IMG/VR virus record: IMGVR_UViG_3300034198_015644
Location: 32,001-96,000 of that record
DNA from: a virus
Reading direction: 5' to 3' (one strand)
DNA: 64,000 nucleotides
This document shows positions 14,198 to 37,900 of the stretch, one piece after another (positions within the stretch are counted from its first letter, which is position 1; every line of letters starts with the position of its first letter). The notes beneath the pieces were generated by a model. The model ran no database searches and was not told the origin of the DNA. It saw only the letters and a program-made list of their open reading frames with translations. Position numbers and translations under genes: made by a program.

Positions 14198-14557
14198 ATG
14201 GAAATACATAAACTTCGTTGGCCACTTAATGAATGTCCCATTCCCGTTAAATTTAAAACACAAAAACCTATAATTTATCCGATCATAGAAAATTTTTATG
14301 AATTACCCGATGAACAAAAAAATGTTTTATTAGAAATAAAAAAGATAATAAATTTTTATTTACCCGATGCGAAGTTATTTTTATTTGGTTCTAGAATAAA
14401 AGGTAATTGGGATGAAAATAGTGATTATGACATAATGGTTGAAACTAAAGAAAATGGCGAAAAAAATAAAATTTTAAAAAAATACGATTTTGGGGTAAAA
14501 GTAGACATTTGTTTTACCCAAAAATACGAAGCACTAAAAAAAATTGAAATTACTTAA
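14198..14557 (+). CDS. Minimal nucleotidyltransferase (MNT, Pol-beta superfamily)
   Basis: 119 aa with 'LFLFGSRIKGNWDENSDYDIMV' (GS-x10-DxD) and a third acidic residue in 'KVDI'. Confidence 0.85.
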   Translation: MEIHKLRWPLNECPIPVKFKTQKPIIYPIIENFYELPDEQKNVLLEIKKIINFYLPDAKLFLFGSRIKGNWDENSDYDIMVETKENGEKNKILKKYDFGVKVDICFTQKYEALKKIEIT

Positions 14558-14587: not shown

Positions 14588-14610
14588 AAAACAAAATAAT
14601 TATTTTAAAA
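14588..14610 (+). promoter_or_regulatory. 23-bp element duplicated upstream of the 4101-aa and 626-aa genes (copy 1)
   Basis: AAAACAAAATAATTATTTTAAAA is identical at 14588-14610 and 27037-27059 and contains the 14-bp palindrome AAAATAATTATTTT. Confidence 0.6.
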
Positions 14611-20600: not shown

Positions 20601-23600
20601 TTTGGCACTATATATGAATTGGACTTAAACATAGGTGTACCTAATACTGTATTTAGTTTTGAAAATGTAACTGGTTCGGGAGATATTGGATTTTATCCTA
20701 ATGGAAAATTAACTTTAGGGTCAAACGGATTGTTATATGGACTAACAACTGGTGGAGGATTTTATGGAGTAGGGGCATTTTTTGAATTCGATCCAACTTA
20801 TCTAACCTATAGGACAATACATAGTTTTAGTGGCACCCCTATTGACGGTGAGACTGCGACAGGTACTTTATTTGAAGATGAAAATGGAGTATTTTATGGG
20901 TTAACAAAAGAAGGTGGACCTATAGGTCGAGGAACAATTTTTGCTTGTGATATATATGATAATTATAAAATTTTAAAAACTTTAAATAATTCAAACGGTA
21001 GATATCCTGAGAATACATATTTTATAAAGGCATCCGATAATAATTTATATTCTACAGTTAGTGGTGGATTACCTAATAATGGTGGTGGTATTATAAAATT
21101 AACAATTGAAACATTAACGGGTTGTTGTTATAGTGCAACTACAAATATACCACAGTGTTTAGACGGAGTGACTATTGACACATTATGGATAGATAATATG
21201 CCATATGTTAATGTATTAATTAATAGTCAAAATACTACACCTCCATATGAAGTTACGGTTGGGGGTATAACATATCCTTATTATGTTGGATCATTAACCG
21301 GAAATTGTTACCCAATAATCGGATGTGATCCAGTTATTGTAAATGTTTGTGCACCTGAGATTACTTCCCAACAATTAAGTGGATTTACAGTAGAACATAA
21401 ATTTAGTTTTTCAGATGCTTATGATGGTAAAAATCCATATGGTGATTTAACATTAAATTATAATGGAATATTTTATGGAATGACATCGCAGGGTGGTGTA
21501 AATGAGCCAGGATATTTCCCCACAGGATGCGGAACAATTTTTAGTTTTGATCCAATAACTAAGATTTATCAAAAAGTTTATGATTTAGACGCTGATAATG
21601 GAGATGGATTTTTTCCAAAAGGAACATTACAATGTGACCTAAATTATAATTTATATGGGGTTAATTATTACGATGCAGTTAGTGGTTATGGTACGTTGTT
21701 TAGTTGTACCACTTCAGGATCATACGCAGTAATACATAATTTTGACGATGTTAATGGATCAAATCCTGTTACATTACCTAGTAGAGAACCATTAACAGGA
21801 CGATTCCAAAGAGTCGGAACAACAATAAAAAGTGCAACCGGTGATGGAGTTTTATATAGTTTTGATAATGGTACACACGTGAATGATGATTTTAGCTCAA
21901 TAGGGTCTTTTGGTCGAGGCACTAATTCATATTTTAATGACCCATCTATATCTTATAATAAAGGAATAAATTCAAACGGACCCTTATTAGTTGATCAAGA
22001 GTTATCATTAATATATTTCGGATCAACTCAAGCATTTGTTTACGGCATGACAAAAGAAGGGGGAACAAACAATAATGGTGTTATTTTTGCTTATGACTTT
22101 TTTGTCTATGGTTTATACGATATTTATAATTTTACAGGCGGAGCGGACGGAGGAAAACCAACAGGAGGTTTAATTAAGTATAGTTATGGGTTATATAATA
22201 AAGTTTATGGAATGACTTCAGAAGGTGGTGCAGGTTTTGGTGTCATATTTGAGATGGATTTATCAATTTTTGGTTCACCTGTAAATACAATTTTACATAC
22301 ATTTGCGGGAGGAACTTCTGATGGATCTAGACCATATGGTTCATTATACGAATTTAATGGTCGACTTTATGGTATGACATATTATGGAGGAACGAATAAT
22401 GCCGGTGTAATATTCTCATTAGACCCAAGACTTCCTTATCCACACGACTATACAATCATTCATAGCTTTAATGGAAGTACGGGAGGATCAAATCCTGTAG
22501 GTTCATTGACAATGGGCCCTGATGGTAAATTATATGGTATGACATTGTATGGCGGTAATGGAGTAGGTGTAGGAGGTAAAGGTATAATATTTAGTATTGA
22601 TTTTAATTTAACTCAAAGAGCGGCATGTTGTTATCAAACAACCATAGACGTAAATGATCCTAACGATATAAATTTACCTCTTATTGAGGGAACTTGGTTT
22701 AATTCACAACCAACAATTTCTGTGAGCATTGACCCAAATAATTATTATGTCGCTCCTTATACTGTAACTATTGATGGAGTTACATATAACTATGACACAA
22801 ATAGTGCTAAAAATTATTTCCCACAATTAAGTTGTGGTACACATACAGTAGTCATTACACCAAATGCGGGAAACAATACACTTGACTTTTCGGGTTTAAA
22901 ATCGTTTAGTGGACCAACAATTGATCCGGGTTCATTATTTGGTAATCCAATTGAACCAATCACCAACGAATTTTATGCCTTATCTTATGCGGGTGGAGCA
23001 TTAAATTTTGGTACAATTTTTAAGATTGATTTGTTAGGTAATGTTGAGATACTTCATAATTTTTCAGGATCAACTTATGGTGATGGAAACCACCCAATAC
23101 AAGATTTAATTTTATCGTCAAATGGAAAAATGTACGGTACAACCTCGGAAGGCGGAATATATAATGCGGGTACAATATTTAGTTGTGATACTTTAGGTAA
23201 TTATGGTATAGTTTATAATTTTTCTGGTGGCACAAATGGAGGTGGACCGATTCAAAATTTAACAGAAGTTTCTAATGGTATTTTTTATGGATTAGTGTAT
23301 CAAACCGGTGCATTTGGTATGGGTATTATTTTTAGTTGTGATACAATAGGAAATTATAAATTGATTCATAGTTTTAGTGGGTCACCTTATGATGGGATGC
23401 AACCTTTAGAAAGTTTTTATAAACATTCAAATGGTATTTTATATGGTACTACATTTAATGGGGGTACTTATAATGCGGGAACAATTTTTAGTTGTGACAC
23501 TTTAGGTAATTATGGTATAATTCATAGTTTTAATAATACAGTGATTCCCAATAACGGATGCAACCCAAGATGTACGTTAATTGAGGGAGATAATGGTATT

Positions 23601-26600
23601 TTATATGGTACTACATCAAATGGTGGAAATATAGGTTCATATGGGACAATTTTTACTTGTAGTACATCAGGAAATTATGGAGTAATACATAAATTTACAG
23701 GTGTAGATGGTGACGGACCACAAGAAGGTCTTTTTAAAGGTCAAAGTAATATTTTTTATGGGACTACTTATGGTGGTGGGATTCATAATTTGGGTACAAT
23801 TTATAGTTGTGATACTTTAGGTAATCATGGGGTAATTTACAATTTTAATGGTTCAGGTTCAACCGGATCTTTACCGTATAATGGATTATATGTGGCAGAA
23901 AATGATATTTTATACGGTTTCACTCAGTACGGCGGAATTTATTCGGCGGGAAATTTTTATAGATTTAATCCATATAATTTTCTATATGGAGATTGTCCTT
24001 ATTCGGGTACTGTTAACATACCATGTTTTTATTTAGATGAATTAAATGTGGAAGTTCCATGTACAACAAACGATGGTCAAATATCAGTTCAGGCATTGGG
24101 AGGTAATCCTGATTACACATATACTTTGACATATACTAGTATAACAAATGATACATACAGTATAACACAATTTGGTACCACATTTCAACCAATAACGTTT
24201 ATCAATTTAAGTGCATTAACATGGGGATTAATTGTCACAGATTCTAGTGGACAAACGTTAAGTCAAATTTATGATTTTAATCCAATCGATAACCCATCTA
24301 TCACTACAGTTAATGGTGATACTATTTGTATTAGTTTAGATCAAGTGGGATTATCATTAACAGGTATTACATTAGATGGTAATATACTATATAGTGGGAA
24401 TATAGGTCTAACTAATTTTTGTTTTACTGCAGGTTGTGGTAACCATTTGGCCCAATTTTATACTACCAATGGATGTATGTACCCCATTCCCTTTTCTTTT
24501 GATTGCCCACCAAGTAATTTAGTCTTCACAAATTTAAGTCAGATAGATCCTTTTTGTTGTAACTCTTCTGCAAAAATTAATGTGGCAGTAACAGGCGGTA
24601 CATTGCCATATACGTATACTATATATAATATACCAACTACCGCGACTTATACTAATACTACGGGTAATTTTACAAACATATACCCACCTACAGGAACTTG
24701 GCAAGTAATTGCAACGGATGCAAATGGTAGCACGATAAGTAGTAATATTTTTACATTAAATTCAATATTTTTTGCTGATATTACATTTATTAATAATATC
24801 GCAGTTATTAATTTTAGTGGATCTACTGGAATAGATGTACTAATAAATGGAGTTTCACAAACTTTAGGTTATATTGCAACTAAAGTAAGTGGGGGAACTT
24901 TAAGTTATCCAATACCTTGTGGAACTAATATTAATGTTGAAGTTATTGGTAGAATAGTTATAAATCCTATAACTAAAACTTATGAATATTGTCCTATAAG
25001 TGCAAGTACATTTTATCCTTGTCCTTTATTTTGTAGTAATATAATTAGTCAACCAAGATGTCCAGGACAAAACGCTAATTCTGTTACAGTCTTAGTAACA
25101 GGCGGAACACCAAACTACAATATAACATTAACTAATGGTACGTTAATTTATACTGCTAACACATCACTAAATAGTTATATTTTTAACGATAACCCACCTT
25201 TAGTCACTTTAATACAAGATGATTGGACAATAACTGTTATAGATTCTGATGGTACAGTTTGTATACAAGATATAACTATACAATCTAGTTTTGATGCAAC
25301 AATAACAGGTACGTCAACGGGGGCATGTTTTACGGTAGTTGGGGGAAATCCACCATATACACTTTATATTGATGGCGTGATTTATACACCATTAATAAAT
25401 CAAATAAGTAATGATATTGTTTATTGCGTACCACTAAATTGCGGTAATCATCAATTAGAAATAAGAGAAACAGGAGTACCACCAGCGGCATGTTCAATAG
25501 TTTTAGATTACTTTAGTTCCTGTCAATTGACTTGTAGTACAATAACTACAGATCCCGGTTGTAATGATAATTGTAGTGGATCAGTTACGATAAGTGTAAC
25601 TGGTGGAACACCACCATACAACTATAGTTTAATTAGAACCTCACCATCGTTTTATCAAACGACATATACGGGTCCACAAACTACTTGGACTTTCTATGAT
25701 CTATGCGAAGGGACTTATGATATTACAGTATCGGCGTTAACTAATGGTGCGTTTTGTACATCTAATTTGAATCTAGCATCAATATATGATGTAGTAGTTA
25801 GTGGATATGCAGTTTCAACTAACTGTCTATATGGTGTAATGTGTATTGACATTACGGGAGGAACACCACCTTATGATGTATATATTGATGGAATACTAAG
25901 AGCAACTGCAATTACTCAAACACATAGTTGTTATAGTGCAACTTGTGGTGTAAATCATACTTATCAGGTAATTGATTCTGCACCTCCTTGTAATATACCA
26001 TTAAATCAGGCATTACTTAAAAATACAAGTTTTACAGGGACTAGTGATTGGATATTGACTAATGATTATACTGGTAGTACTATAATATCGGGAGGTAGTG
26101 CAATAGTATCTTCTACGACATATAATACTTTACAAGTATTTAGATTTTTACAAGATTATATTTTCCCGTTCCAAAAACCAATATCAATAAAATATAATGT
26201 CAGTGTTAGTACAGGGACAATTCAAAATTACAATTATTTACCACAATTTAGGATACAAAGTCCTTTTGGTAGTACTAATATGGGTGGAATTGCACCTAAT
26301 TCGACATATTCTACAACAAAACAGATAGTAAGTACGGTAGAACCTGTAATTTTCTCAGGTTTTGGTATTAATTTTTATCAATCGTTCCTACCTAATAATA
26401 AAACTGAGGTAAAAGACATGCAATTGACATTATTGTCTTATACTGTAGATTGTAGATGTTCGGCTAGCGGAACTACATATGTACCTTGCAACCCACCATT
26501 AACATTAAATGTTGTTTCTTATACAGAACCAAATTGTTTCAGTGCTTGTAATGGAACTATCATCGTTTCTGCAACCGGAGGAGTACTCCCATATAGTTAC

Positions 26601-26924
26601 TCAGCAACTAATGGAACGTCAATTTACATAAGCCCTAACGGGGTATTTAACGATCTTTGTGAAGATACTTGGGACTTGTCGGTTAGTGATAGTTGTAATA
26701 CAGTTGTTACAAACGCAGGATTCTTCTTACCAAACTCATTCCATGTAACAGTGGATACGTATCCTACAGAGTTTTGTGTGGGAATAACAGGAGGAACACC
26801 ACCTTACCATGTTTTCATAGATAATGTAGAAATTGATACCATTAGTCAAAGTCCGGTTAATATTTGTTATAGCGCAAGTTGTGGGGTAACCACAATTATA
26901 CGTGTGGTGGATAGCTCTACTTAA
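14619..26924 (+). CDS. Giant tail-fibre/adhesin-like protein: N-terminal GH-like TIM barrel, SprB-like Ig units, four TIGR03803 (GloVer) beta-propellers, CBM-like insert
   Basis: 4101 aa. 'TIENEFWN' domain; many 'P.C....G.I.V...GG.PPY.Y......F..L.AG.W...V.D' units; 'G.LYG.T..GG....GTIF......HSF.G..G..P' repeats at about 18.7-24.0 kb. Confidence 0.75.
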   Translation: MAFPILRDPEVIHLFVDKFPTLLSGPSSAITEFYSFCVKNGVNELSLYDTLSVLPSSTNSVSNFIYSAKTFNYVCEVGGTVNPYDPATLGLKYLNLITTYNNGQPNLSRKYDRITIENEFWNLETSINPLKNTAGFTISTIAGNTVASIAGGIPSSIFVVGNMVKVFGEYRQVLAIGATTITVDRGFTNTVTNQTFEIRDNKVSGAETYAIDFETYLLRLKNIRNVAVANNLKIDAYLSRRVTQVQFLKLIPFIDRILIEADYDQNNYLLYNDPTQLNKIRDVLIRCSQNRTGTVNINVGNNNMQGIGTDFTNELGVGTKIYVSGQVFTIQSIVSSTQATLLETNNSSTINNATFKTYTEFAPIFYINKTLRKTWLTTPVSTKSYADVFKMFTLSGYTVGGSVQSGSNPICYNLEDNPSITGATNLIGISIFDRTEAQSIDIKVAQSSSPRSSCTNPLARSIGANNTYAITFQGNDCTCDNATNGSVTANFSTIQPTPYNYTFTNGGRVIEITNLTTPPPYTFSGLGLGTWNISVRDGNNSVSTGSVTINESFQPTITGNYISAGQGGITVFYTGGYNNYYISRIDNPTNINNQWGPFISYHNAGSDPFFDSNITVNNTTKSYNSSSTPAYNFVPNQSYSFVIGDTDACIKIFTVTIPQASTGPSVNITQTTNPSCDAASNGSITMVAAGTGPYVFHVTYPNGNTSNINSVSTTQVLNNLSAGNYSVTVTDANNVTSTPAVTTTLTNTYNSNINATSTSPNQVCFQLVAGSTYTITSGGGTFQSFNQTVSGPNFTPCFNNLPGGQYNFNVLSSNGCSETIYLTVNSATLTLSLNQYENPSCTQVNDGIINVFATSNGNGQFSYSASNGSVIYSNNSGNFTNLSAGTWTLSVSQNGILGNNIVVQLNNSFYVNVTSTGETVCVSASGGSLGIYTVDINGTLHTYNTASTINCYTGLCSGNVVRVVDGDIINTSISGCVYTTTTPKDCAFNFNVTANTITCGDYGSIIARADGGVTPYIYTATGNGTYTNTTGNFNVLPSGIWTITVEDNIGNSGTTTVNLDSKLKFSADSSALSATCVTIIDGLAPYYILINQILYTASTQGTYCFDLECGYNGIDVYDSCTGTTCANYLFTAPGGIQSFFQNIFWTNCSGMTQSGILNSISPIIGNTFSTCAIFGTPVTTNSKIEISLIGFCPPGTNQDCVVDNSVIVYYDCPGPLSLEQTQDSVNPSCTDSSDGEIYFSGFGGDYPYVSYSAINGNTIYVNGTGTFSNLSAGTWTIYVEDSSNTITSTTVTLVSDFIVDFTITSFTENSVTICANIPIQYQTLEYELTFENQTAILNASNSFCNTFTGITGCSVVNVNLCSLRNYRRLTNIGGGGRSVIKGSDGLFYGVTQIGGLYNYGTIYRYNETTKVYTTLHSFNGTTDGNTPQDIIEVSNGKLYGICLVGGNSGYGTLFSCTTSGSYAVIHNFDGTNGGNPVSNLTLASNGVMYGMTQYDSTYGYGTIFSCSTIGNFGVVYSFQYVFSIPFDGYNPTGKLIEASNGLLYGVTPLGGSSDQGILFNYDYINNQYNNLFSFDYGSVAYPNEIVEGLDNNLYVIGDTFSNKSIYKLDLSGTPKGNVHNFSLSDGSNANKLIKGLNGNLWGSTLYGGLYNFGTIFSCDTLGNFEVLYNFKNSLPNDNFLLNTNSTIFYGTRQSNILYKINVSLPESCCFDTTTNLNDLLKPNIISLYGDYVNGVPSICTTIDISSSVNVWYTVTVNGEENIYDRSLEPNCFSALTEGLTDVSICEYVDSFNYLAIHYFDSTNNTFGTTPNGGLIEASDGNFYGMTFNGGSNDFGVIYSCDTIGNYGIIYNFGSVLFDGKYPLGSLIQGSNGTLYGMTSSDNILNLCGVIFSCTTTGNYGIIHRFDNTVTNGVTKGRTPEGSLCEVSDGFLYGVTRYGGFNNGGVIFKINPTTGQYFSIYEFGQAPNDPLEPIEGVIEVNNKLYGMSYFGGQHNFGTIYELDLNIGVPNTVFSFENVTGSGDIGFYPNGKLTLGSNGLLYGLTTGGGFYGVGAFFEFDPTYLTYRTIHSFSGTPIDGETATGTLFEDENGVFYGLTKEGGPIGRGTIFACDIYDNYKILKTLNNSNGRYPENTYFIKASDNNLYSTVSGGLPNNGGGIIKLTIETLTGCCYSATTNIPQCLDGVTIDTLWIDNMPYVNVLINSQNTTPPYEVTVGGITYPYYVGSLTGNCYPIIGCDPVIVNVCAPEITSQQLSGFTVEHKFSFSDAYDGKNPYGDLTLNYNGIFYGMTSQGGVNEPGYFPTGCGTIFSFDPITKIYQKVYDLDADNGDGFFPKGTLQCDLNYNLYGVNYYDAVSGYGTLFSCTTSGSYAVIHNFDDVNGSNPVTLPSREPLTGRFQRVGTTIKSATGDGVLYSFDNGTHVNDDFSSIGSFGRGTNSYFNDPSISYNKGINSNGPLLVDQELSLIYFGSTQAFVYGMTKEGGTNNNGVIFAYDFFVYGLYDIYNFTGGADGGKPTGGLIKYSYGLYNKVYGMTSEGGAGFGVIFEMDLSIFGSPVNTILHTFAGGTSDGSRPYGSLYEFNGRLYGMTYYGGTNNAGVIFSLDPRLPYPHDYTIIHSFNGSTGGSNPVGSLTMGPDGKLYGMTLYGGNGVGVGGKGIIFSIDFNLTQRAACCYQTTIDVNDPNDINLPLIEGTWFNSQPTISVSIDPNNYYVAPYTVTIDGVTYNYDTNSAKNYFPQLSCGTHTVVITPNAGNNTLDFSGLKSFSGPTIDPGSLFGNPIEPITNEFYALSYAGGALNFGTIFKIDLLGNVEILHNFSGSTYGDGNHPIQDLILSSNGKMYGTTSEGGIYNAGTIFSCDTLGNYGIVYNFSGGTNGGGPIQNLTEVSNGIFYGLVYQTGAFGMGIIFSCDTIGNYKLIHSFSGSPYDGMQPLESFYKHSNGILYGTTFNGGTYNAGTIFSCDTLGNYGIIHSFNNTVIPNNGCNPRCTLIEGDNGILYGTTSNGGNIGSYGTIFTCSTSGNYGVIHKFTGVDGDGPQEGLFKGQSNIFYGTTYGGGIHNLGTIYSCDTLGNHGVIYNFNGSGSTGSLPYNGLYVAENDILYGFTQYGGIYSAGNFYRFNPYNFLYGDCPYSGTVNIPCFYLDELNVEVPCTTNDGQISVQALGGNPDYTYTLTYTSITNDTYSITQFGTTFQPITFINLSALTWGLIVTDSSGQTLSQIYDFNPIDNPSITTVNGDTICISLDQVGLSLTGITLDGNILYSGNIGLTNFCFTAGCGNHLAQFYTTNGCMYPIPFSFDCPPSNLVFTNLSQIDPFCCNSSAKINVAVTGGTLPYTYTIYNIPTTATYTNTTGNFTNIYPPTGTWQVIATDANGSTISSNIFTLNSIFFADITFINNIAVINFSGSTGIDVLINGVSQTLGYIATKVSGGTLSYPIPCGTNINVEVIGRIVINPITKTYEYCPISASTFYPCPLFCSNIISQPRCPGQNANSVTVLVTGGTPNYNITLTNGTLIYTANTSLNSYIFNDNPPLVTLIQDDWTITVIDSDGTVCIQDITIQSSFDATITGTSTGACFTVVGGNPPYTLYIDGVIYTPLINQISNDIVYCVPLNCGNHQLEIRETGVPPAACSIVLDYFSSCQLTCSTITTDPGCNDNCSGSVTISVTGGTPPYNYSLIRTSPSFYQTTYTGPQTTWTFYDLCEGTYDITVSALTNGAFCTSNLNLASIYDVVVSGYAVSTNCLYGVMCIDITGGTPPYDVYIDGILRATAITQTHSCYSATCGVNHTYQVIDSAPPCNIPLNQALLKNTSFTGTSDWILTNDYTGSTIISGGSAIVSSTTYNTLQVFRFLQDYIFPFQKPISIKYNVSVSTGTIQNYNYLPQFRIQSPFGSTNMGGIAPNSTYSTTKQIVSTVEPVIFSGFGINFYQSFLPNNKTEVKDMQLTLLSYTVDCRCSASGTTYVPCNPPLTLNVVSYTEPNCFSACNGTIIVSATGGVLPYSYSATNGTSIYISPNGVFNDLCEDTWDLSVSDSCNTVVTNAGFFLPNSFHVTVDTYPTEFCVGITGGTPPYHVFIDNVEIDTISQSPVNICYSASCGVTTIIRVVDSST
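18959..19024 (+). repeat. 66-bp perfect direct repeat, copy 1 (copy 2 at 21680-21745)
   Basis: TAGTGGTTATGGTACGTTGTTTAGTTGTACCACTTCAGGATCATACGCAGTAATACATAATTTTGA occurs twice. Confidence 0.9.
21680..21745 (+). repeat. 66-bp perfect direct repeat, copy 2
   Basis: Identical to 18959-19024; encodes SGYGTLFSCTTSGSYAVIHNFD. Confidence 0.9.
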
Positions 26925-26964
26925 AAAAGTAAAATATAAAAGATTAAAACTATGTACGTTTTTT

Positions 26965-27015
26965 ATAAAATCCTTAATTTTAAATAATTAAGGATTTTAT
27001 CCTTTTATTTTTATT
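26965..27015 (+). terminator. Probable intrinsic terminator after the 4101-aa gene
   Basis: 15-bp perfect inverted repeat ATAAAATCCTTAATT / AATTAAGGATTTTAT with a 6-nt loop (26965-27000), followed by a T-rich tract. Confidence 0.65.
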
Positions 27016-27036
27016 AAAAAACTTATAAAAAATCAG

Positions 27037-27059
27037 AAAACAAAATAATTATTTTAAAA
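27037..27059 (+). promoter_or_regulatory. 23-bp duplicated upstream element (copy 2)
   Basis: Identical to 14588-14610; ends 7 nt before the ATG at 27067. Confidence 0.6.
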
Positions 27060-27066
27060 ACAAAAG

Positions 27067-28947
27067 ATGCCTATTCCAGCACCATATAATCCTAAAAATT
27101 TACATTTATGGGTTGATAATGTTACTAGTTTGTTAACTAACAGTACCAATTTTTTCCAATTAATTGATAATAACTGTATTAACACATTCACTATGTATCA
27201 AATACCTACGATAACTTCGCAGGTACAATCTTTGGGAAATTTTATATGTGAGGCAAAAACAAATCATGGAGTCTGTAGTGTGGCAGGAATTATAAACCCA
27301 TACGATTGGACTCCTCCTCCGGCCGGTACAAGAAACGTTCAATCTATTGTCAATTACAATAATAACCCAATTACACAGGCAAATTCATGTCGTAGAATTG
27401 ATTATCTCACAATTGAGAGTGAGTTTTGGAATATAGACGATCCCGCAATAAATCCTGTAGTTTCTAATGGTTGTACCATAAATATAGCTGCTAACTCATC
27501 AACAGGTACAGTTTCAGGTTGTTTAGGAGGAGTAACCGCAGGTATGATAATAAAAGTTTCTGTTGGGGCGACTTTTGTTTATAGACAAATAATTGGTATT
27601 AGTGGTAATATTGTAACATTTGATAGAGTTTTTGATCCAATTAACGCGTACTTAGCTGCACCATTTACAGTAATTAACAACCAAACCTTCTATGGAATTG
27701 ATTTTGAAACACTATTATATAGGATAAAATATAATATACGACCTATGGCAATTGCAAATAACTTATTGCCATTAGAAATATATGTTTCAAGAGCTTTAAC
27801 CAGCGATCAATTTGAAAGACTAATACCACACGTTGATAGATTATTAATTGAGGTAGATTATAATCAATTAAGTTATCCTAGATACAACGATAACGATGTA
27901 ACTAATCCCTCATGGTCAACTAACACTATTAAAAACGCTCTAAGTCTTTGTAGCGTCATTAGAACGGGTACAATTTCAATTGCACAAAATAGTAATATTG
28001 TAACAGGTAGTGGAACTTTATTTACAAGAGATTTGGGTGAACAATCACAAATAATTGTAAATGGAAACCAAATTTATACAATTGCCACAATAATTTCAGA
28101 TACTCAGGCAACAATTGTTGGTACTTCCCCAATCAATATAACTGCAGGTAGCACATACGCATCTTATTTTGATTACATGCCAATTTTTTATACATTACCA
28201 GCTGGGGCATTTGGTACTCCTCTTAGGAGACAATGGATGTTAAACCCTTCACCAAAAAGTTATGCGGATGTATATAGATTCCATTCTCAAAACGCCTATA
28301 CTGCAGGTGGATCAATACAGGTAGGAAATACCCCTATTGCATTTAACAACGAAACAGATCCATATATTGTTGATTCAGTTTCATTAGTTGGTTTATCGTT
28401 ATTTGTTTGGTCTTCTGTTAGTAATTTATCTCCTGTTGCACCACCAGATTATCCTTGTCCACCTTGTAGTGGAGAAACCATAATAGGGTGCGAGGTTACC
28501 GCAATCACAACCTCAAATTGTTTAATCGCAACATATACTAATCCAGCTTGTGATGGTGTTTGTGATGGCACTATAAGTGCGTCTACAACATATGGAATTG
28601 CGCCATTTACTTATTATATAACAGGAATAACTAATTCAATAACTTATGTAAGTAGTACAGGTTTTTTCAGCGGATTATGTGAAGACACTTATATTTTATG
28701 TGTTACAGATTCTGCATCAAATACCGAATGTTATTATCAAAATATAGAATTAGTAAATACATTTTATGCATCTATAAATTCATTTTTAAATGGTTTTTGT
28801 GTTACAATAAGTGGAGGTACAGGAATTTATTATGTATACAAGGATAATCAAGTTTTGCCTTGGGATTATAATAATACTACAAATTGTTATAGTGCGGATT
28901 GTTCCACACTTTCAGTAATAACAGTAAGAGATACTAGCACATTATAA
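27067..28947 (+). CDS. Short paralogue of the 4101-aa fibre protein: GH-like domain plus one SprB-like unit pair
   Basis: 626 aa. The N-terminal ~460 aa align by eye with the 4101-aa N-terminus (HLWVD/HLFVD, NPYD, TIESEFWN, IDFET, DRLLIE.DY.Q, KSYADV). The C-terminus matches its last unit. Confidence 0.75.
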   Translation: MPIPAPYNPKNLHLWVDNVTSLLTNSTNFFQLIDNNCINTFTMYQIPTITSQVQSLGNFICEAKTNHGVCSVAGIINPYDWTPPPAGTRNVQSIVNYNNNPITQANSCRRIDYLTIESEFWNIDDPAINPVVSNGCTINIAANSSTGTVSGCLGGVTAGMIIKVSVGATFVYRQIIGISGNIVTFDRVFDPINAYLAAPFTVINNQTFYGIDFETLLYRIKYNIRPMAIANNLLPLEIYVSRALTSDQFERLIPHVDRLLIEVDYNQLSYPRYNDNDVTNPSWSTNTIKNALSLCSVIRTGTISIAQNSNIVTGSGTLFTRDLGEQSQIIVNGNQIYTIATIISDTQATIVGTSPINITAGSTYASYFDYMPIFYTLPAGAFGTPLRRQWMLNPSPKSYADVYRFHSQNAYTAGGSIQVGNTPIAFNNETDPYIVDSVSLVGLSLFVWSSVSNLSPVAPPDYPCPPCSGETIIGCEVTAITTSNCLIATYTNPACDGVCDGTISASTTYGIAPFTYYITGITNSITYVSSTGFFSGLCEDTYILCVTDSASNTECYYQNIELVNTFYASINSFLNGFCVTISGGTGIYYVYKDNQVLPWDYNNTTNCYSADCSTLSVITVRDTSTL

Positions 28948-28948
28948 A

Positions 28949-31900
28949 ATGCCATATATTTTTAACGACAAATATTATAAAATAATACATAAAATAGGAC
29001 TTAATAATCTTAGTCAACAATCAAATAGTTCATTAATTATACCTAACTCCTTTCTAAATAATTTATTTTATGCAACAACGGAGGAAACGAGCTTAGTAGG
29101 TTCCAATTTTCGAGGTACTATATATAGAGCTGATGCGGATGGTAACGTTTTTGATGTTTTGTATCTTTTTTCGGGATTAACTCAACCACTCACACTATTT
29201 AAAGACGGTGATGGAGATCGACCAATCGGATCATTAATCGAAGCACCAAATGGGTTGTTGTATGGAACAACTGATGGTGGCGGGGTTTGGACTAATAGTA
29301 GTCAAACTCCTATTTATGGAAATGGTATATTATTTAGCTATGACCCTTTGGGTAATACATACAATATTTTATATAGATTTTCGGGTATAACAAATTTTGA
29401 TCCGATACCTTCTTTAACGGATGGTGGTAGGCCACAAGCAAATTTAAAAGTAATTTCAGGTACAACAATATTTGGTACAACTTGTGCCGGAGGTTATAAC
29501 CCTATAGGTGGGGGAACTGAATTAGGGTCTATTTGGAAATTTGATACGTCAACTAATACATATTCAATTTTACACCATATTACTGCATCTACGGAAGGAA
29601 GAAAAGTAACTGAACTTATTTTGGCTAATGATGATAATTTATATTTTACAACCAAATTTGATGGTGCGGGTTTTCCATGGCCTGCTGGAGGATCATTAGT
29701 TAAATTAGATCTAAATGGGAATAGTACAGTAATACATCAGTTTACCAATACTCCTGATGGGGCAGATCCTTCCGCATCATTATTACAGGCATCAAATAAT
29801 TTAATTTATGGTACAACTACTCAAGGAGGAACAGGAGGATATGGGACAATATATACGTGTGATACTTCAGGTAATTACGGAATCATATATAATTTTTTAG
29901 GTGGAATTAATGGACAAAATCCATCAGGATCTTTATATGAATATAGCCCTGGATTATTTTATGGTATGGCATATGGTGGGGGTAATTTTAATTTAGGTGT
30001 TATTTATAGTTCAGATACTTTTGGAAATGTAGGAGTAATTCACCATTTTGGATCTTTTTATCTAGATGGAGAATCTAATTATCGACAAATTACTAATCTT
30101 AGTACAGGAGTTAATGGATCTCTTTTTGGTGTTACAAACGGTGGAGGAATAGGAAGCGGGACAATTTATACTTGGATTGATACTTGTAGTTTTATTTATT
30201 CCAGAAGCGGAACAACATTAAATTATTTCGATCCAAATCATATTGAATATTCGTATTATTTTGAAACTATAAGTCCATCAAATATAAGAGTAGCATTTGC
30301 ATGTAGAAATAATAATCTTTTTTGGAGAAAAATTACCACATCATTTAATGTTATAGATGAATTTACGTTAGGAAATTTTTTAGACGAAGCGCCCGTCATA
30401 AATAGAAATATATTTTTACCTCCAGCAGCATTTAAAGGAATGGCATATGCCGGACCAAATCAACTCTTTGTAAACAATAGAACTTCACAAAGAGTTGAAT
30501 TATATGATATAACAAATACAAGTGCAACATTAATAACTCCAGTATTTTCACTACCTATAACACATCAGTTTAGTATAGGAAATTATACAGATTCTTTGTA
30601 TGTAAATAACACTCAAACAGTATTTTATATTAATTTTAATAATACATTTACATCGTTTGATTCTAGTGGACAAATTTTAAATGACGGGGCACCACCTTTA
30701 GGTAATGTAGTTAGTATGTATGTACATAATGGTGATATATACACTACTACTGACAATAATTTAATTTATCTTACCGAACCTTCCGCACCAAGTGGATGGA
30801 CTTTTACCTTGATAGGTAATACACCATATAACGAACCAATGTATGCAATCGCACAAGATAATATTTCTGAATGTCTATTATCAATCCCAACGGTAGATTA
30901 TTCTTGTGTAACTTTATTTGTACGTTATGCGGATGATTTTTATATTTATGAACTTGACCCCAATAATCCCGATATTTTAAATTATAGATTTAAGCCTTTT
31001 TATGCGACAACTCAATTAGCGACAAACGGAATTTATCTTTGGGCACATAGAAGTACAGTTCCTTCATCATTTATTGATGTGTATGATTTGGCCGCATCGT
31101 ATGCTACTCTTAATGGGGTATTAGTACCAAGTATGCAAATTACTGTTCCAATTAACACTAGACTTGGTGGAATTTTTTATATATCACCTAACCAATTATA
31201 TGTAGTTAATGAAACTTTAAATACGGTAGAATTGTGGGACATATCAACACCACCTACACCTATAATAACAACAGTATTTAATATACCCGCACCATATTCG
31301 CCAGTAATACTTAACTCTTCCTATAATTCTTTATATGTTGATTTAAATAATAATATATTTTATTTGACAACTTTTACTGATTTTGTTTCATTTAGTGTAA
31401 CACCTGGCAACCCTAATCCAACTGTTTTAAATACCTCATCAAGTACAATTCTCCCAAATGGGCATCAAATAATTAACATGTATTTGGATAATGGACAAAT
31501 ATATGTTACAACTCAACAAGGGTATATATATTTGGCACAACCGGCGGTGGGAGGAGGATGGACTTTTATACAACAAACATTTATACCTAGACCAACAAGA
31601 TTTGGTGTGACACAAACTTATGCAGAAGATTGTGTAGGTACTGTTCCACCCACACCTTTAACAGGTTGTGTTATCACAGGATTAACAGTAACAGGTTGTT
31701 CTGATTTTGTTATAGTAAGTGGGGATAGTCAAGACATAACATGTTTACATGATGGTAGTGTATCAATTCAAATATCAGGAGGATGCCCAAATTATACATA
31801 TACATTATACCACCCAAATATAAGTACACAAGTAAATCAAGTAGTAACACCTAACAAAAATTGGACTTTTACAGGATTAACTGATCCGGGAAATTACTAT

Positions 31901-34900
31901 GTATCTATAAGTGGATGTAGTGGGGCGACGTTAGTGACATTAAGTCCATTTACAATTTTAGATAACAATACTTTTTATAATAACATCTTCCAATTAAACA
32001 ATGAAGAGTTTTGTGTTACTGTAAGTGGTGGTACATTACCTTATATAATTACAATTGATGGAGTTTCTCAAACGTATCAAAGTGCAGACACATATTGTTT
32101 TAGTGCAAGTTGTTTAACACCACCATCACCATCACTAATTAGATGTAGATTAAGTAATAATAATGGAAGAATAAATAGAGCTTGGGATGGAACACCTTTA
32201 AGTCCATGTCAACATACTTTTACAATTTTAGATTTAACCGTAAATGGAGTCCAATATGGACCCGGTACACCACTAACAGTTACCGCACCTTCAGGATTGA
32301 TGGCGGGAATAGGTACTGATGGTAATAGTTACGTCACCAATATTACTGATTGGATAAATAGTTATGTGCCAGCAGGATTTACATTTTGGGATGACATGAA
32401 AGTTGTCGATAGACCTGTAGGATCAACATTTAACTTAACCATAAGTTACTTCAACGCATGTGCAGGAACAACTCAACAATATACATATAACGACTCTACG
32501 GGTTGGACAATACCGGGACCTCAAACATATTCTACATATGATTGTGTACCTTTAACAATTGGAGGTGGATCACAAACAGGAAGAACAGTTACTATTAGTG
32601 ATGCGGAAGGATGTAGCGCAAGCACTGTTATAAATTATACTTGTGAAACGCCAACAATTAGTATAAGTGGCACAAATCTTTGTTGTAATAATGACGGAAG
32701 TGTAAGTATAACAGTCAATAATGGAGTACCTGCTTTTAGTGTTACCGGCACTAATGCGACTACGGGTGAAGAAATAATTGTAACTTCACCCACAACTCCA
32801 ATAAACATAGATCATTTAACTCCGGGTAATTGGACGTTTGTTGTACAAGATTCTTACGGTAATTTAATAACCACCAATAATACAATTAATTTAATAAGAT
32901 CTTATAATGTTGATTTTTTCAGTGCAAGCACTTCCCCAACAGGGACTACATTTTGTTTTAGTGGAGAATCTTGTTTAGATTATTTGAATGTAATTATTGA
33001 AGCTACCGGTCAAATAACCTCGATCAATCTAAACCCGACACCGGATGCTTGGTTTGGTACTGATGGAATTATTGATACAAATACTTTATATTGCTTTGAC
33101 ATACCAATAGAGTATTGTGGAAACGATGTAATAAATATATTATTTTTTAATGGACTAAATACTAACATAAATGTTCTATCAGGATCATTTACTAACCCAA
33201 CCTGTCAGGCGCTATTTGGATATGTAGGGGCACAAGAAGGTACTTGGGTTAATGGGTATCCTGCTTATTGGTTTACTCTTAATAATGGAATTGATGTTGT
33301 AGTTTATTTTGATTTAACATTAAATCTTTGGGTTTGGAAAAATAGAAATAGTGGTACTATTTGTTCATCTTCACCTGATTTAATAAACTGGACATCAATA
33401 AATACTAGTCCAAATTGTCAGTGTGTTGATAGTTTTACTAGTTCTATAGTTATTGCTGTCGATTCTTGTGGTTACATATACGAATCTATAAGTTTACCAT
33501 GTCCGACACTTACATTAAGTGGAACATCAGTAAATCCTACATGTATTCAAAATTGTAGCGGAACAATAACATTGACATCATCAGGAGGTCAATCACCATT
33601 TACTTTTCAATTAACAGACTCCAATGGAAATACATTATTAAATTCCATTGGACAACCAACAATTGCAACAAATATAACTACTAATAGTTATACATTTACT
33701 AATCTTTGTTCGGGTACTTATTATACATTAATTACTGATAGCGCTTTCCCAATTCCAGCTACGGCAAATACAACACCAATAGTTTTAATAAATACATTTA
33801 TCGCTAGTGCAAATGTTTTACCTATAACAATAAATGGCACTGGAGGTACAATTTGTTTTACGGTTACAGGAGGTAGTGGAAATTATAATATTGACATACA
33901 AGATACCAATTATACTTATCCGCCAGTAAATGATACTATAGTGGACGGTGAAACTTGTTTTGATTTGCCATTTGGGTGTTATGATTGGTCAATTATAGAT
34001 CCTTCCACATTATGTCAATACACAGGAAATACGTGTATACCTGAGACACCATTTGGTTGCGGAGATTATACATATACTGACCCAACCTGCACCAATGACG
34101 GCACATTAACAATCAATGTTAGTGGAGGAACGGGTCCATATCAATTTGATTTATACCTTAATGGAATTTTCAATCAAACAGGTACTAATTCTGTTGAAAC
34201 ATTTACATTTCAAAATTTAGTTGCGGGAACTTATAACGTTTTAGTTACAGATTTAGGTAGTGGGACAGTTTTAGATTGTGTTACAGTAACATTAGTAAAT
34301 ACGTTTAGTGTTCAATTTATAAGTGGAAGTACTTGTGAAAATCCAGGATATTATTGTGTCTCATTTTCAGGAGGAAATCCACCATATATTATAGAGTTTG
34401 ATCAGACTATACAATATGTTGAATATATTGCAGGTACATACTGTTACCAAGCACCTTGTGGAACTTATGAATTAACGGTAAGTGATAGTGCAATTATTGG
34501 AAATTGTTATCAAGTCCAAGTGTACACTAAAGGATTGGGTGGATTTATTATAACCACAGATATAAATGGAAATGAAATTGCAAATACTGTACCAATTTCA
34601 TTAAGTCCACAAACATTTTATTTTTGTTCTTTTAGTGCGCCTTATTATTCGGTATCAGGACCACCTTATAGTCCATATGTACCTCCATCACCATATTATC
34701 TTAATATTTCTACATCAGGAGATTGTTCTAGTACGAATTGTGGCGGATCAACAATAGGTGGATGTAGTGATTCACAAACAATCACAATATCTTGTGGAGT
34801 TGATTTAAGTGCAACTACCGTTGGTAACCCTTGTGGTCAAAATGGTCAAGGATCTATAACTATATTTAATATTGGTGGATCACCTAATTTCCAATATTCA

Positions 34901-37900
34901 ATAAACGGAGGTTTAACCTATCAATCGTCTAATTATTTTACTGGACTAAATAGTGGTACATACGATATTACAATATTAGATGCAAGTGGTTGTACGGCAT
35001 CAACTCAGGCGGTAATAGGGTATCAAACAAATTTAAGTGTAAGTGCGAGTACAACACCTGAAAATTGTGACTATAGTAGTGGGGGAACTATTACGATTAA
35101 TATAGTTGGAGGTACACCTACATATTCAATATCACTTAATGGAGGATTACCAACTACGCAAACATATTACACAGGATTAACAGTAGGAACTTACACATTT
35201 AATATTACAGATTCAGAAGGTTGTACTGCGACAATTGATGTTACAATTGAACCACCAATAAGTCTTAGCGGTACAATAACTACGTCAGAAAGTTGTAGTT
35301 ATTCACCATCATTAAATCAATATTTGGCACTTAAAGTCGAGTCGCTAATTAACTATTTAGGTAATGATGTATTAGAAAATGAACACATAAATTATGCGGT
35401 TTGTCAAGGATATACAATTTTCCAATCCTATGGGGTGGCTAAAATATGGAGGACATTATCCCCAACTGTAACTAATCCACAAGGATTAAATAGAGCGCAG
35501 GCAGAGGCAAGACTTAGTGTATTTTTAGGTAAAATATATTCGGCAGGTTTATTACCAGTGGCACTTTTAGGTGACACTGCAGACATGGATTGGTTGGCAA
35601 GTGTGGATGCGGTAAATGCAAATAAATTTTGGGGAATTGGTTTAGAAAATGAATTTTGGAATGGTGCAGTATCTTTTGCGAATTGGGTTAGTTATTTAAA
35701 TTATTTAAAAGTTACATATCCACAATATTTTAGGATGGCATATTTGGCCAATCCGGCAGGAACTTGGGGGGCAACTGAAGCATTACAAATTATAGATGCG
35801 CAAATAGATGTAATAGAAATTACAAATTATAATTCAGGTAAACCTAATCCAAATTGGGGATCTTTTGTTAACCAATTAAATCTTTTAAGTACTGCGGCAA
35901 ATATTAGAGGAGTTAATCAAAAATTTATACCATTATGGAGTGCGGAATATAATGGTAACTCAGGTAATAATTTTTCGGGACAATATTTTGGCGTTACTAC
36001 AAATTATACAAAAATAAATCCATCTGCAGTACTTACGCAATATGATATAGATTTTGCTGCAGTAACATATGCATACCCTCCGAATTTGACAAAGGTAGGA
36101 TTTAGTATGTATGAATACATTTACGCAATTGATGCGGGTGTATTACCTCAATGTACGAATTTATCGGGTTCAATAACTGCTTCTACTATAACTTCTGGTG
36201 GTACAGGAGTTTATAGTACCTCAGGAACTTTAACAATAAATGCTAATGGTGGATATGCCCCATATCAATACTCAGTAGATGGTGGGGCGTTTGGAACATC
36301 TAATTATTTTACAGGATTAAATGGTGGAATACATAATTTTGTGGTAATAGACGCGAGCGGTTGTACTGTCAGCGGTACGACCACAATCGGAGGGGCATTT
36401 GAGTTTGAAACATCAGTGACATCGTTAGATTGTTTAACAACTAGCAGTGCAACCATATGTGTTACAAGTATATCAGGAGGATACCCACCATACACCTATT
36501 CAATTAACGGAGGATCTTTTAGTAGTTCAAATTGTTTTAGTGGATTATCTTCAGGTTCATATACAATTGCAGCTCAAGATTTATCGGGTTGTAGTGCAAC
36601 AACAGTAGTATTTATTTCTGCACCATCACCAATTATAGTAAATGCAAATGTAATAGATTCAATTAGTTGTTTAGATGGGTCAAGCGCTAGTGGAGGTACT
36701 ATAACAATTACTGCGACCAATGGTACTTCACCATATTATTATAGTATTGATAGCGGGTTAAATTATCAAACATTAAATACTTTTATAAATGTACCTGTAG
36801 GTACATATACCATAGTAGTTAAAGATTCCTTAAATTGTACAGGTACTACTACAGTAAATGTTGGAACAAGACCTTCGTTCTCAATAAGTGCCTCATCTAC
36901 GCCTGATAATTGTAGTTTAACAGGGTTAGGTAGTTTAACTATAAACGTTATCGGAGGATATTCACCATATTACTATTCAATTGACGGAGGTTTATTCTTT
37001 AATGGACCAATAAATTCAAATTCTTATTATCAAGGAGGATTAAATCCGGGTGTTTACGACATAGTAGTTGAAGATAGTAGCGGTTGTACTGCGACCACAC
37101 AAGTAACTATTATCACTAGTGAAGATTTAACTATAGGCGTTGTAACAACACCTGAAACTTGCAATTACAATAGTGGGGGTACGGCAACTATTAGTGTGAC
37201 AGGAGGGACTCCAACATTTACATATTCATTAAATGGATCTTCTCCAGTTTCTTCTAATTATTTTACAGGTTTAACTGTTGGTACATACACAGTAACAGTT
37301 ACTGATAGTTTAGGATGTAATGATACAATAACATTTACTATTGATCCACCAATAAACATAAGTGGTAATACAACTCCTCAACCATGTAATGGTATTAGTG
37401 GTGGTACGTTAACAATAAATGCATCTTCAGGTAATCCACCATATACATATTCTGTCGATGGTGGATCATTTACCAACAATAATTATTTTACAGGATTAAC
37501 AACAGGTAGTCATACCATTATTGTTAAAGACGCAAGCGGATGTACCGCGTCTACAATAACACAAGTAAATCCACCAATTATTGTAAGTGCCGTAACTACA
37601 CCAGAAAATTGTTTATATACAAGTGCGGGTACAATAACAATTGTCAGTACTATTGGAGGTACTTCACCTTATACTTATTCAGTTAATGGTGGATCATTCA
37701 CAAATTTAACATATTATACAGGATTAACTTTTGGTAGTTATAATATTATCGTAAAAGATATTTCAGGTTGTAGTGCAACTACGCAGGTGACAATTAATCC
37801 ACCTATACCTGTTAGTGGTACAGTAGTTACTACAAATTTAGATTGTAATAATACTAACATAGGTACATTATTGATAACTGCCTATGGAGGTACTTCACCA

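What the first reader, a model, noticed from the sequence alone, without database searches (positions are those of the whole stretch)
26733..31699. Three fibre genes apparently chained by split Ig domains (donor-strand complementation between gene products)
Seen: most complete 'B-type' units in these proteins follow the pattern F..(C)V...GG..PY.V.IDG....C....C G....V.D and close with a C-x9-C strand. Examples are CVYTTTTPKDC, CMYPIPFSFDC, CPISASTFYPC, CSIVLDYFSSC, CSASGTTYVPC, CPYSGTVNIPC, CSASTVINYTC and CSDSQTITISC. The 4101-aa protein ends 'SCGVTTIIRVVDSST*' and the 626-aa protein ends 'DCSTLSVITVRDTSTL*', both stopping exactly before that strand. An orphan strand with exact spacing sits in the next gene product just after its N-terminal passenger: 'GCEVTAITTSNC' (28486-28521) in the 626-aa protein and 'GCVITGLTVTGC' (31664-31699) in the 4829-aa protein. 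Each is followed by a normal next unit. Inference: protein n's incomplete last domain is completed in trans by protein n+1, probably with an inter-chain disulfide, building one ~9,500-aa fibre (4101 -> 626 -> 4829 -> baseplate). Strand donation is established for chaperone-usher and type V pili, but I do not know it as a phage-fibre extension mechanism.
Basis: partly seen in the sequence, partly recalled or inferred. Interest (0 to 1): 0.92.

Follow-up and report, generated by a model that had tools for sequence, protein, structure and literature searches.

The report
Phage fibre genes split inside Ig domain
Three giant tail-fibre genes of a large phage each break inside a small immunoglobulin-like domain, and the missing last strand is encoded by the next gene, so the proteins probably plug into one another the way pilus subunits do; this joining mechanism has not been described for phage fibres.

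Summary
The 4101-aa and 626-aa proteins both end 2-4 residues after the sixth strand of a short SprB-related Ig-like unit ('B'). A C-x9-C strand with no B unit before it sits in the 626-aa protein (aa 475-485) and in the 4829-aa protein (aa 907-917).

Several results assign the C-x9-C strand to the preceding B unit as its seventh (G) strand, not to the unit that follows:
- a profile comparison with the complete SprB unit;
- an AlphaFold2 model of an internal stretch;
- the strand always follows a B unit, directly or after an inserted domain, whatever comes next.

The split is conserved. Twenty-one metagenomic proteins of 69-4101 aa stop at the same profile column. Two relatives begin with the bare strand ('MICQITGSTLISC'). 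Only the 626-aa family carries the strand between its N-terminal domain and first SprB unit.

Trans completion is therefore the best reading (about 0.6) but is not shown. The one complex prediction gave weak support only (0.41 against 0.17 for the best control). The inter-chain disulfide, the order of the chain and its polarity towards the baseplate remain untested. Contig look-up and read mapping were not available. I rate it a new variant of donor-strand complementation.

The parts
14619..26924 (+). Gene for the 4101-aa fibre protein (P0001). It has an N-terminal ~460-aa domain, SprB-type Ig units, four GloVer propellers and other domains nested in B units, and a terminal strand-A-B cassette. 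It has no orphan donor strand.
   Evidence: PF13573; TIGR03803; no C-x9-C after the N-terminal domain
25287..25526 (+). Internal reference unit: complete B unit plus directly joined closing strand (aa 3557-3636; strand CSIVLDYFSSC at 25491-25523)
   Evidence: HMM columns 2-79. In the AF2 model, strand E175-180 follows the F strand E162-168. Structural alignments place the A domains at model residues 19-106 and 187-273.
26007..26456 (+). ~150-aa inserted domain between the sixth strand of a B unit (aa 3735-3796) and its closing strand CSASGTTYVPC (26457-26489). It is absent from relatives P0014 and P0016, where the same B unit joins the strand directly.
26733..26921 (+). Acceptor 1: terminal B unit of the 4101-aa protein (aa 4039-4101), six strands, ending in the F-G loop
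   Evidence: HMM columns 1-63 of 79. The same end is seen in orthologs P0012, P0014-16, P0130 and P0131.
26925..27066 (+). Intergenic spacer with an inverted repeat 26967-26998 followed by a T-run, and the 23-nt leader motif at 27037-27059 that also precedes the 4101-aa gene (14588-14610)
27067..28947 (+). Gene for the 626-aa link protein (P0002): N-terminal domain (27067-28467), donor strand, one SprB unit (28522-28755), acceptor B unit
28489..28521 (+). Donor 1: orphan strand CEVTAITTSNC (aa 475-485). Both Cys, T481, S483 and N484 are invariant in 7 orthologs. It is an insertion specific to the 626-aa family.
28756..28944 (+). Acceptor 2: terminal B unit of the 626-aa protein (aa 564-626), ending in the F-G loop
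   Evidence: HMM columns 1-63. All 7 orthologs carry the truncated unit; six stop 1-2 residues after it and P0009 adds 'QSSVNLCL'.
28949..43438 (+). Gene for the 4829-aa fibre protein (P0003): 906-aa N-terminal passenger with GloVer repeats, donor strand, SprB arrays, and a non-cassette C-terminal region
31667..31699 (+). Donor 2: orphan strand CVITGLTVTGC (aa 907-917), with no B unit upstream in its chain. It is equivalent to CIITGVTVTGC in P0013 and to the N-terminal MICQITGSTLISC / MIQCIITGSTNISC of P0169 / P0191.

Best explanation
The three genes encode beads-on-a-string tail-fibre proteins of a large myophage. They are built from SprB-type Ig-like units, with whole domains (GloVer propellers and others) nested in the loop before the last strand of a short 'B' unit.

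The two gene boundaries lie in that same loop. Each upstream protein ends with a six-stranded B unit (the acceptor). The seventh strand (the donor, flanked by two Cys) is encoded in the next protein, after that protein's N-terminal passenger domain.

Most likely the donor strand inserts beside strand F of the acceptor, as it does within a chain. That would join the proteins head to tail into one composite fibre, with the passenger domains hanging off the joints. This is donor-strand complementation used as a plug and socket between different giant proteins.

Shown here: the split architecture, the homology of the strand to strand G, and conservation of the split. Inferred: physical completion in trans, which partner pairs with which, any disulfide lock, and which end faces the baseplate.
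For: (1) A profile of B unit plus C-x9-C aligns over the full length of the complete SprB unit. In hhalign local mode the probability is 91% and E is 1.1e-6, and the first Cys of the strand falls on the Cys that opens strand G.

(2) The AF2 model of aa 3450-3800 (mean pLDDT 66) gives the A units seven strands without the C-x9-C. The B unit has six, plus the C-x9-C as a seventh directly after F. Single-domain structural alignments place the A domains at model residues 19-106 (rmsd 2.0) and 187-273 (rmsd 2.9). That leaves 107-186, which includes the strand, as the B domain. A C-x9-C with no B unit before it in the construct is disordered at pLDDT about 32.

(3) Within a chain the strand always follows a B unit, directly or after an inserted domain. 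It may be followed by either an A or a B unit.

(4) Long paralogs go straight from the N-terminal domain into the first A unit. Only the 626-aa family has the strand inserted there, so neither neighbour needs it.

(5) Twenty-one proteins of 69-4101 aa end at HMM columns 62-65 of 79, at most 4 residues from the stop. Two relatives start with the bare strand. One further relative (P0137) has a propeller, an orphan strand and an acceptor end.

(6) The 106-kb record holds exactly two acceptors and two orphan donors, in consecutive genes.

(7) Complex prediction of the 4101-aa end with aa 468-560 of the 626-aa protein gave weak support. The score was 0.41 and the best of 3 controls was 0.17. That mark was reached by 58 of 80 solved complexes and 2 of 110 mismatched pairs. 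At 0.60 or under it was reached by only 7 of those 80, and by both mismatches that passed. The runs agree in at least 83% of contacts and the partner's pLDDT is at least 75.
Against: - No interface or contacts were returned, and the complex score is in the weak band.
- The B unit and its closing strand have only pLDDT 50-60 in the model.
- The full-length 626-aa model is poor (pLDDT 52) and says little.
- In one relative (P0011) the terminal B unit is followed in the same chain by 290 aa of unrelated Cys-rich repeats, although its contig also carries a 626-aa ortholog with a donor strand.
- Gene neighbourhoods of the relatives could not be fetched.
- The record is only 32% complete by CheckV, so the two-to-two tally may be incomplete.
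- A six-stranded sandwich could be stable on its own.
Confidence: 0.6

Rival explanations
1. Ordinary domain boundaries. The six-stranded B unit is a stable end domain, the orphan C-x9-C strands are only Cys-stapled linkers, and each protein attaches to the virion on its own. The recurring break point reflects a loop that tolerates insertion and gene fission, with no reassembly.
For: The loop clearly tolerates insertions of 65-400 aa. The 4101- and 626-aa proteins each have their own copy of the N-terminal domain and of the 23-nt leader, as expected of independent fibre genes. Part of that domain matches the N-terminal part of tail-fibre PHROGs. The complex score is only weak.
Against: The orphan strand is more conserved than the linker before it. 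It is an insertion specific to the link-protein family. In two relatives it forms the extreme N-terminus. All 21 ends stop at the same column, not at other inter-domain boundaries. The strand is homologous to strand G of the complete unit.
Confidence: 0.2
2. The truncated terminal cassette is a socket for something other than the next gene product, such as a baseplate protein, another fibre protein encoded in the unsampled 68% of the genome, or a host surface protein. In that case the pairing n -> n+1 is wrong even though strand capture is real.
For: The acceptor ends are very similar across many proteins ('..ITV.DSS'), so specificity may be low. The record is incomplete. In the P0011/P0008 relative, the 4101-aa ortholog found on that contig does not end in a free acceptor.
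Against: In the window the two acceptors and the two donors lie in consecutive genes and their numbers match. No other ORF of the record has a B or donor element.
Confidence: 0.12
3. The breaks are bridged covalently by recoding (frameshift or readthrough), or they are sequencing or assembly errors, so the real product is a single chain.
For: The 4829-aa gene starts 1 nt after the 626-aa stop, in the +1 frame.
Against: The +1 frame is open for only 7 codons before that ATG and would add a Met-led passenger, not a strand. Genes 1 and 2 are separated by 142 nt of AT-rich spacer with a hairpin, a T-run and a duplicated leader. Both stops are TAA. The same ends occur in 21 independent sequences.
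Confidence: 0.03

Closest known systems
Donor-strand complementation/exchange in chaperone-usher pili (FimA, PapA and relatives)
   Same: An Ig-like subunit lacks its C-terminal seventh (G) strand. A strand lying N-terminal in the next subunit fills the groove, giving a head-to-tail chain. By element content, the 4101-aa protein (acceptor only), the 626-aa protein (both) and the 4829-aa protein (donor only) mirror the tip adhesin, rod subunit and terminator.
   Different: No PapD-like chaperone or usher is present in the record. Assembly would take place in the cytoplasm of an infected cell. The partners are different multi-domain giants joined once each, not a homopolymer. The donor can lie after a 470-906-aa passenger and is flanked by two Cys.
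Type V pili of Bacteroidota (FimA/Mfa1)
   Same: Strand exchange between Ig-like pilins, in the phylum whose surface adhesins carry the same SprB repeats as these fibre proteins (the host itself is only inferred).
   Different: Those donors are C-terminal strands exposed after proteolysis of lipoprotein precursors. Here the donor is on the N-terminal side and the proteins have no signal peptide or lipobox.
SpyTag/SpyCatcher (engineered split CnaB2 Ig-like domain)
   Same: An Ig-like domain is cut before its last beta-strand and reconstitutes in trans, possibly with a covalent lock.
   Different: It is engineered rather than natural, and its lock is an isopeptide bond. Here any lock would be a disulfide, which is untested.
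SprB and other T9SS adhesins of Bacteroidota
   Same: They share the same repeat types (PF13573 SprB, BiPBP_C-like Ig, TIGR03803 GloVer repeats) and the same giant size.
   Different: The Pfam scan of the three proteins found no T9SS C-terminal sorting domain (PF18962 or PF13585), whereas the bacterial hits carry them. The context here is a phage baseplate and tail, and the genes are split.
Multi-gene long tail fibres (T4 gp34-gp35-gp36-gp37)
   Same: One fibre is built from several gene products joined end to end.
   Different: From general knowledge, the T4 joints are between trimeric segments. No single domain is shared between two chains.

Membership tests
SprB repeat proteins (Pfam PF13573) | Match to the SprB repeat model above the gathering score | tested here: met
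   4101-aa protein: 72.7 bits. 4829-aa protein: 173.2 bits. Cut-off: 28 bits. The 626-aa protein scores nothing in Pfam, but its A unit matches my A-unit HMM.
GloVer repeat proteins (NCBIfam TIGR03803) | Tandem GloVer repeats above the curated cut-off | tested here: met
   198 bits for aa 1350-1700 of the 4101-aa protein and 128.6 bits for aa 1-900 of the 4829-aa protein. Cut-off: 44 bits.
Donor-strand complementation systems (chaperone-usher type) | Acceptor: an Ig-like fold lacking its last (G) strand | tested here: met
   Terminal units match columns 1-63 of the 79-column B+G profile. The strand is homologous to strand G. The model shows six strands, with the closing strand as the seventh. 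All of this is in silico.
Donor-strand complementation systems (chaperone-usher type) | Donor: a spare strand N-terminal to the next subunit's own folds | tested here: met
   Orphan strands at aa 475-485 and aa 907-917 have no B unit upstream in their chains. The strand is an insertion specific to the 626-aa family. It forms the extreme N-terminus in P0169 and P0191.
Donor-strand complementation systems (chaperone-usher type) | The donor strand actually completes the acceptor fold in trans | tested here: inconclusive
   Complex prediction gave weak support: score 0.41, best of 3 controls 0.17. The mark was reached by 58 of 80 solved complexes and 2 of 110 mismatched pairs. At 0.60 or under it was reached by only 7 of the 80, and by both mismatches that passed. 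Runs agree in at least 83% of contacts, the partner's pLDDT is at least 75, and no contacts were returned.
Donor-strand complementation systems (chaperone-usher type) | Dedicated PapD-like chaperone and outer-membrane usher | tested here: not met
   No PF00345 or PF00577 match in the 106-kb record. The record is only 32% complete.
Type V pili (FimA/Mfa1) | Lipoprotein precursor with a C-terminal donor strand | tested here: not met
   The N-termini MAFPILRDPE, MPIPAPYNPK and MPYIFNDKYY have no signal peptide or lipobox. The donor lies on the N-terminal side of the repeats (read by eye).
T9SS-secreted SprB-like adhesins | C-terminal T9SS sorting domain (PF18962 or PF13585) | tested here: not met
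   The Pfam scan of the three proteins returned only SprB and BiPBP_C. The bacterial hits carry these domains.

The most novel reading that the evidence does not exclude
The split Ig domain is a general plug-and-socket system by which a clade of large Bacteroidota-type phages snaps separately encoded proteins into megadalton fibres. The 626-aa protein carries both a donor and an acceptor, so it could also polymerise head to tail. That would give a pilus-like fibre of variable length, started by the acceptor-only 4101-aa protein and ended by the donor-only 4829-aa protein, possibly locked by disulfides after lysis.
Probability: 0.15. Interest if true: 0.92.

Novelty: new variant of a known kind. 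Interest (0 to 1): 0.8.

Why it matters
If it is confirmed, four things follow.

- It would extend donor-strand complementation from secreted pili and archaeal or biofilm filaments to virion assembly, without a chaperone or usher.
- It would explain how phages can field fibres of about 9,500 aa while keeping the parts as exchangeable genes.
- It would suggest that acceptor and donor ends give a rule for swapping fibre modules, and so host range.
- It would offer a natural, small split-domain tag pair (an acceptor of ~60 aa and a donor of 11 aa) for protein engineering.

It also gives a concrete reading rule for annotating giant SprB-type phage proteins: a gene end of the type '...ITV.DSS' marks a socket, not a truncated gene.

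Tried and rejected
Tools that were closed or found nothing:
- Scans for related loci found nothing in viral contigs, metagenome contigs or genome contigs.
- The phage collection held no match to the 626-aa protein or to the junction DNA.

Work that gave little:
- The full-length AF2 model of the 626-aa protein was too poor (pLDDT 52) to show where the orphan strand sits.
- My third homology search, on the N-terminal part of P0191, was swamped by an inserted PF04185 phosphoesterase domain and gave no further N-termini.
- The atlas search of the N-terminal domain gave nothing usable.
- BLASTP did not confirm that the 'GLENEFWN' domain inside the 4829-aa protein is a paralog of the N-terminal domain (E 0.35).

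Ideas considered and rejected:
- My starting idea was that the C-x9-C strand is the first element of the following SprB unit, so that the ends are plain domain boundaries. I rejected it for three reasons. SprB units have seven strands without it. The strand can be followed by a B unit instead of an A unit. The long paralogs lack it before their first SprB unit.
- Completion of the 626-aa protein's own acceptor by its own donor is unlikely. The strand abuts the N-terminal end of the intervening domain and the acceptor sits at the other end (inference only).
- Cys covariation links C1 with C2 only and does not resolve which Cys could pair across chains.
- Five literature searches found no phage-fibre precedent. 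The library is not exhaustive.
Full report
**Context**

The window lies in an IMG/VR virus record of 106 kb that CheckV rates 32% complete. Its G+C content is about 30%. The first ORF is a baseplate wedge protein (phrog_219), 28% identical to that of Flavobacterium myophage vB_FspM_immuto.

Three consecutive + strand ORFs encode proteins of 4101 aa (P0001, 14619-26924), 626 aa (P0002, 27067-28947) and 4829 aa (P0003, 28949-43438). Pfam finds SprB repeats in P0001 and P0003. NCBIfam finds GloVer (TIGR03803) repeats in the propeller regions. No T9SS sorting domain is present.

**Observation**

I built a 79-column profile from 13 B units that are joined directly to their closing strand.
- Internal units match it through columns 77-79.
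- The terminal units of P0001 (aa 4039-4100) and P0002 (aa 564-624) match columns 1-63 only and stop 1-2 residues later.
- Both stops are TAA, and each next gene is in the +1 frame.
- A 142-nt AT-rich spacer with an inverted repeat and a T-run separates genes 1 and 2.
- A 23-nt leader is identical in front of genes 1 and 2.

**Which unit owns the C-x9-C strand?**

My first guess was that it opens the following SprB (A) unit, which would make the finding a phase error. Four tests went the other way.

1. Profile-profile alignment of B plus strand against complete A units covers the whole A unit (probability 91%, E 1.1e-6, local mode). It places the first Cys of the strand on the Cys that opens strand G of A.
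2. An AlphaFold2 model of P0001 aa 3450-3800 (mean pLDDT 66) shows seven strands in each A unit without the C-x9-C. The B unit has six strands, followed after a 6-residue loop by the C-x9-C as a seventh. Single-domain structural alignments delimit the A domains at model residues 19-106 (rmsd 2.0 Å) and 187-273 (rmsd 2.9 Å). A two-domain FN3 pair covers 106-270, so the strand at 176-186 falls within the B domain. The first C-x9-C of the construct has no B unit before it and is disordered (pLDDT about 32).
3. Within a chain the strand always follows a B unit, either directly or after an inserted domain. Inserts include GloVer propellers, a ~65-aa Cys-rich domain and a ~150-aa domain. After three of the propellers the next unit is a B unit, not an A unit. 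Relatives P0014 and P0016 join the B unit directly to 'CLISGTTFVPC' where P0001 has the ~150-aa insert.
4. Eight long paralogs pass from the shared N-terminal domain straight into the first strand of an A unit. Only the 626-aa family has the strand inserted there.

So neither the A unit nor the passenger needs the strand. In P0002 and P0003 it has no home in its own chain.

**Conservation**

P0002 has six orthologs at 48-66% identity and 621-636 aa. All keep both Cys of the strand together with T481, S483 and N484, while the linker before the strand varies. All carry the truncated terminal unit: six stop 1-2 residues after it ('..ITV.DSS') and P0009 adds eight more residues.

An exhaustive HMMER search and a regional search found 21 proteins of 69-4101 aa that stop at profile columns 62-65, at most 4 residues from the end.

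- P0169 (2545 aa, with a P0003-like C-terminus) starts with the bare strand 'MICQITGSTLISC'.
- P0191 starts with 'MIQCIITGSTNISC'.
- P0013 (5577 aa, P0003-like) carries the strand after one propeller.
- P0137 (855 aa) is another link protein, with a propeller, an orphan strand and an acceptor end.

The internal arrangement B(A-F) - propeller - strand, seen four times in P0001, is the single-chain counterpart of the P0002/P0003 junction. The 106-kb record holds exactly two acceptors and two orphan donors.

**Trans completion**

This is the inference. The one complex job was the P0001 end (A+B) with P0002 aa 468-560, using my own alignments. It returned 'weak support'.
- The score was 0.41 and the best of 3 controls was 0.17.
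- That mark was reached by 58 of 80 solved complexes and 2 of 110 mismatched pairs.
- At 0.60 or under it was reached by only 7 of those 80, and by both mismatches that passed.
- The runs agree in at least 83% of contacts and the partner's pLDDT is at least 75.
- No contacts were given.

The full-length P0002 model is too poor to use.

**Complications**

- P0011 is the P0001 ortholog on the contig that also holds a P0002 ortholog. It continues after its terminal B unit into 290 aa of Cys-rich repeats.
- Neighbourhoods of the relatives could not be fetched.
- Reads could not be mapped.

**Disulfide and polarity**

Across 111 B units, C1 and C2 are present or absent together, while C3, C4 and C5 persist. 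A terminal unit therefore has one Cys without an obvious internal partner. This is compatible with an inter-chain bond but is no evidence for one.

P0002 aa 299-365, and the equivalent segment of P0001, match the N-terminal part of tail-fibre PHROGs. P0002 has both a donor and an acceptor, so homopolymerisation cannot be excluded.

**Comparison and novelty**

By logic this is donor-strand complementation as in chaperone-usher pili: the G strand is missing and the donor lies on the N-terminal side of the next subunit. It differs in four ways.
- There is no chaperone or usher.
- The partners are different giant proteins.
- The donor can lie behind a large passenger.
- The setting is a phage tail.

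Five searches of the held literature found no phage-fibre precedent.

I rate it a new variant of a known kind, with interest 0.8 and confidence 0.6 that the joints form in trans.

Noticed in passing
window 14198-14557 (+): A 119-aa ORF between the collagen-like fibre gene and the 4101-aa gene has a minimal nucleotidyltransferase motif (LFGSR..G....SDYD). It gives a weak MntA-type hit (E 4.7e-5, 23 bits, below the cut-off of 60).
   Followed up: partly
window 14588-14610 and 27037-27059: An identical 23-nt AT-rich leader, AAAACAAAATAATTATTTTAAAA, lies 8-9 nt before the start codons of the 4101-aa and 626-aa genes and nowhere else in the window. It was probably duplicated together with the N-terminal domain and may be a promoter or translation signal.
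   Followed up: partly
window 11626-14187 (+): An 853-aa protein with a (GTSGSS)n collagen-like run near its C-terminus and weak tail-fibre PHROG hits. It is a separate fibre or whisker gene just upstream of the giant genes.
   Followed up: no
window 2085-6722 (+): A 1545-aa protein with two SprB repeats and Hoc-like head-decoration PHROG hits. SprB-type Ig units are therefore used elsewhere in this virion. It has no B unit or donor strand.
   Followed up: partly
relatives P0169 and P0191 (database proteins, no locus): A PF04185 phosphoesterase (phospholipase C / acid phosphatase family) domain is inserted inside a B unit of these P0003-like fibre proteins. The insertion loop therefore also carries enzymes.
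   Followed up: no
relative P0011, aa 3860-4153 (database protein): The ortholog of the 4101-aa protein carries about four Cys-rich repeats of ~75 aa ('C.C[YF]...') after its terminal B unit, instead of stopping there.
   Followed up: partly
window 35240-36200 (aa ~2100-2410 of the 4829-aa protein): A ~300-aa non-Ig domain with a 'GLENEFWN' motif, like 'TIESEFWN' in the N-terminal domains of the other two proteins. BLASTP similarity is not significant (E 0.35), so paralogy is unconfirmed.
   Followed up: partly
whole record (G000, 106,489 bp): CheckV completeness is 32%, which implies a genome of roughly 300 kb or more, that is, a jumbo phage. More acceptor or donor proteins may lie in the unsampled part.
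   Followed up: no
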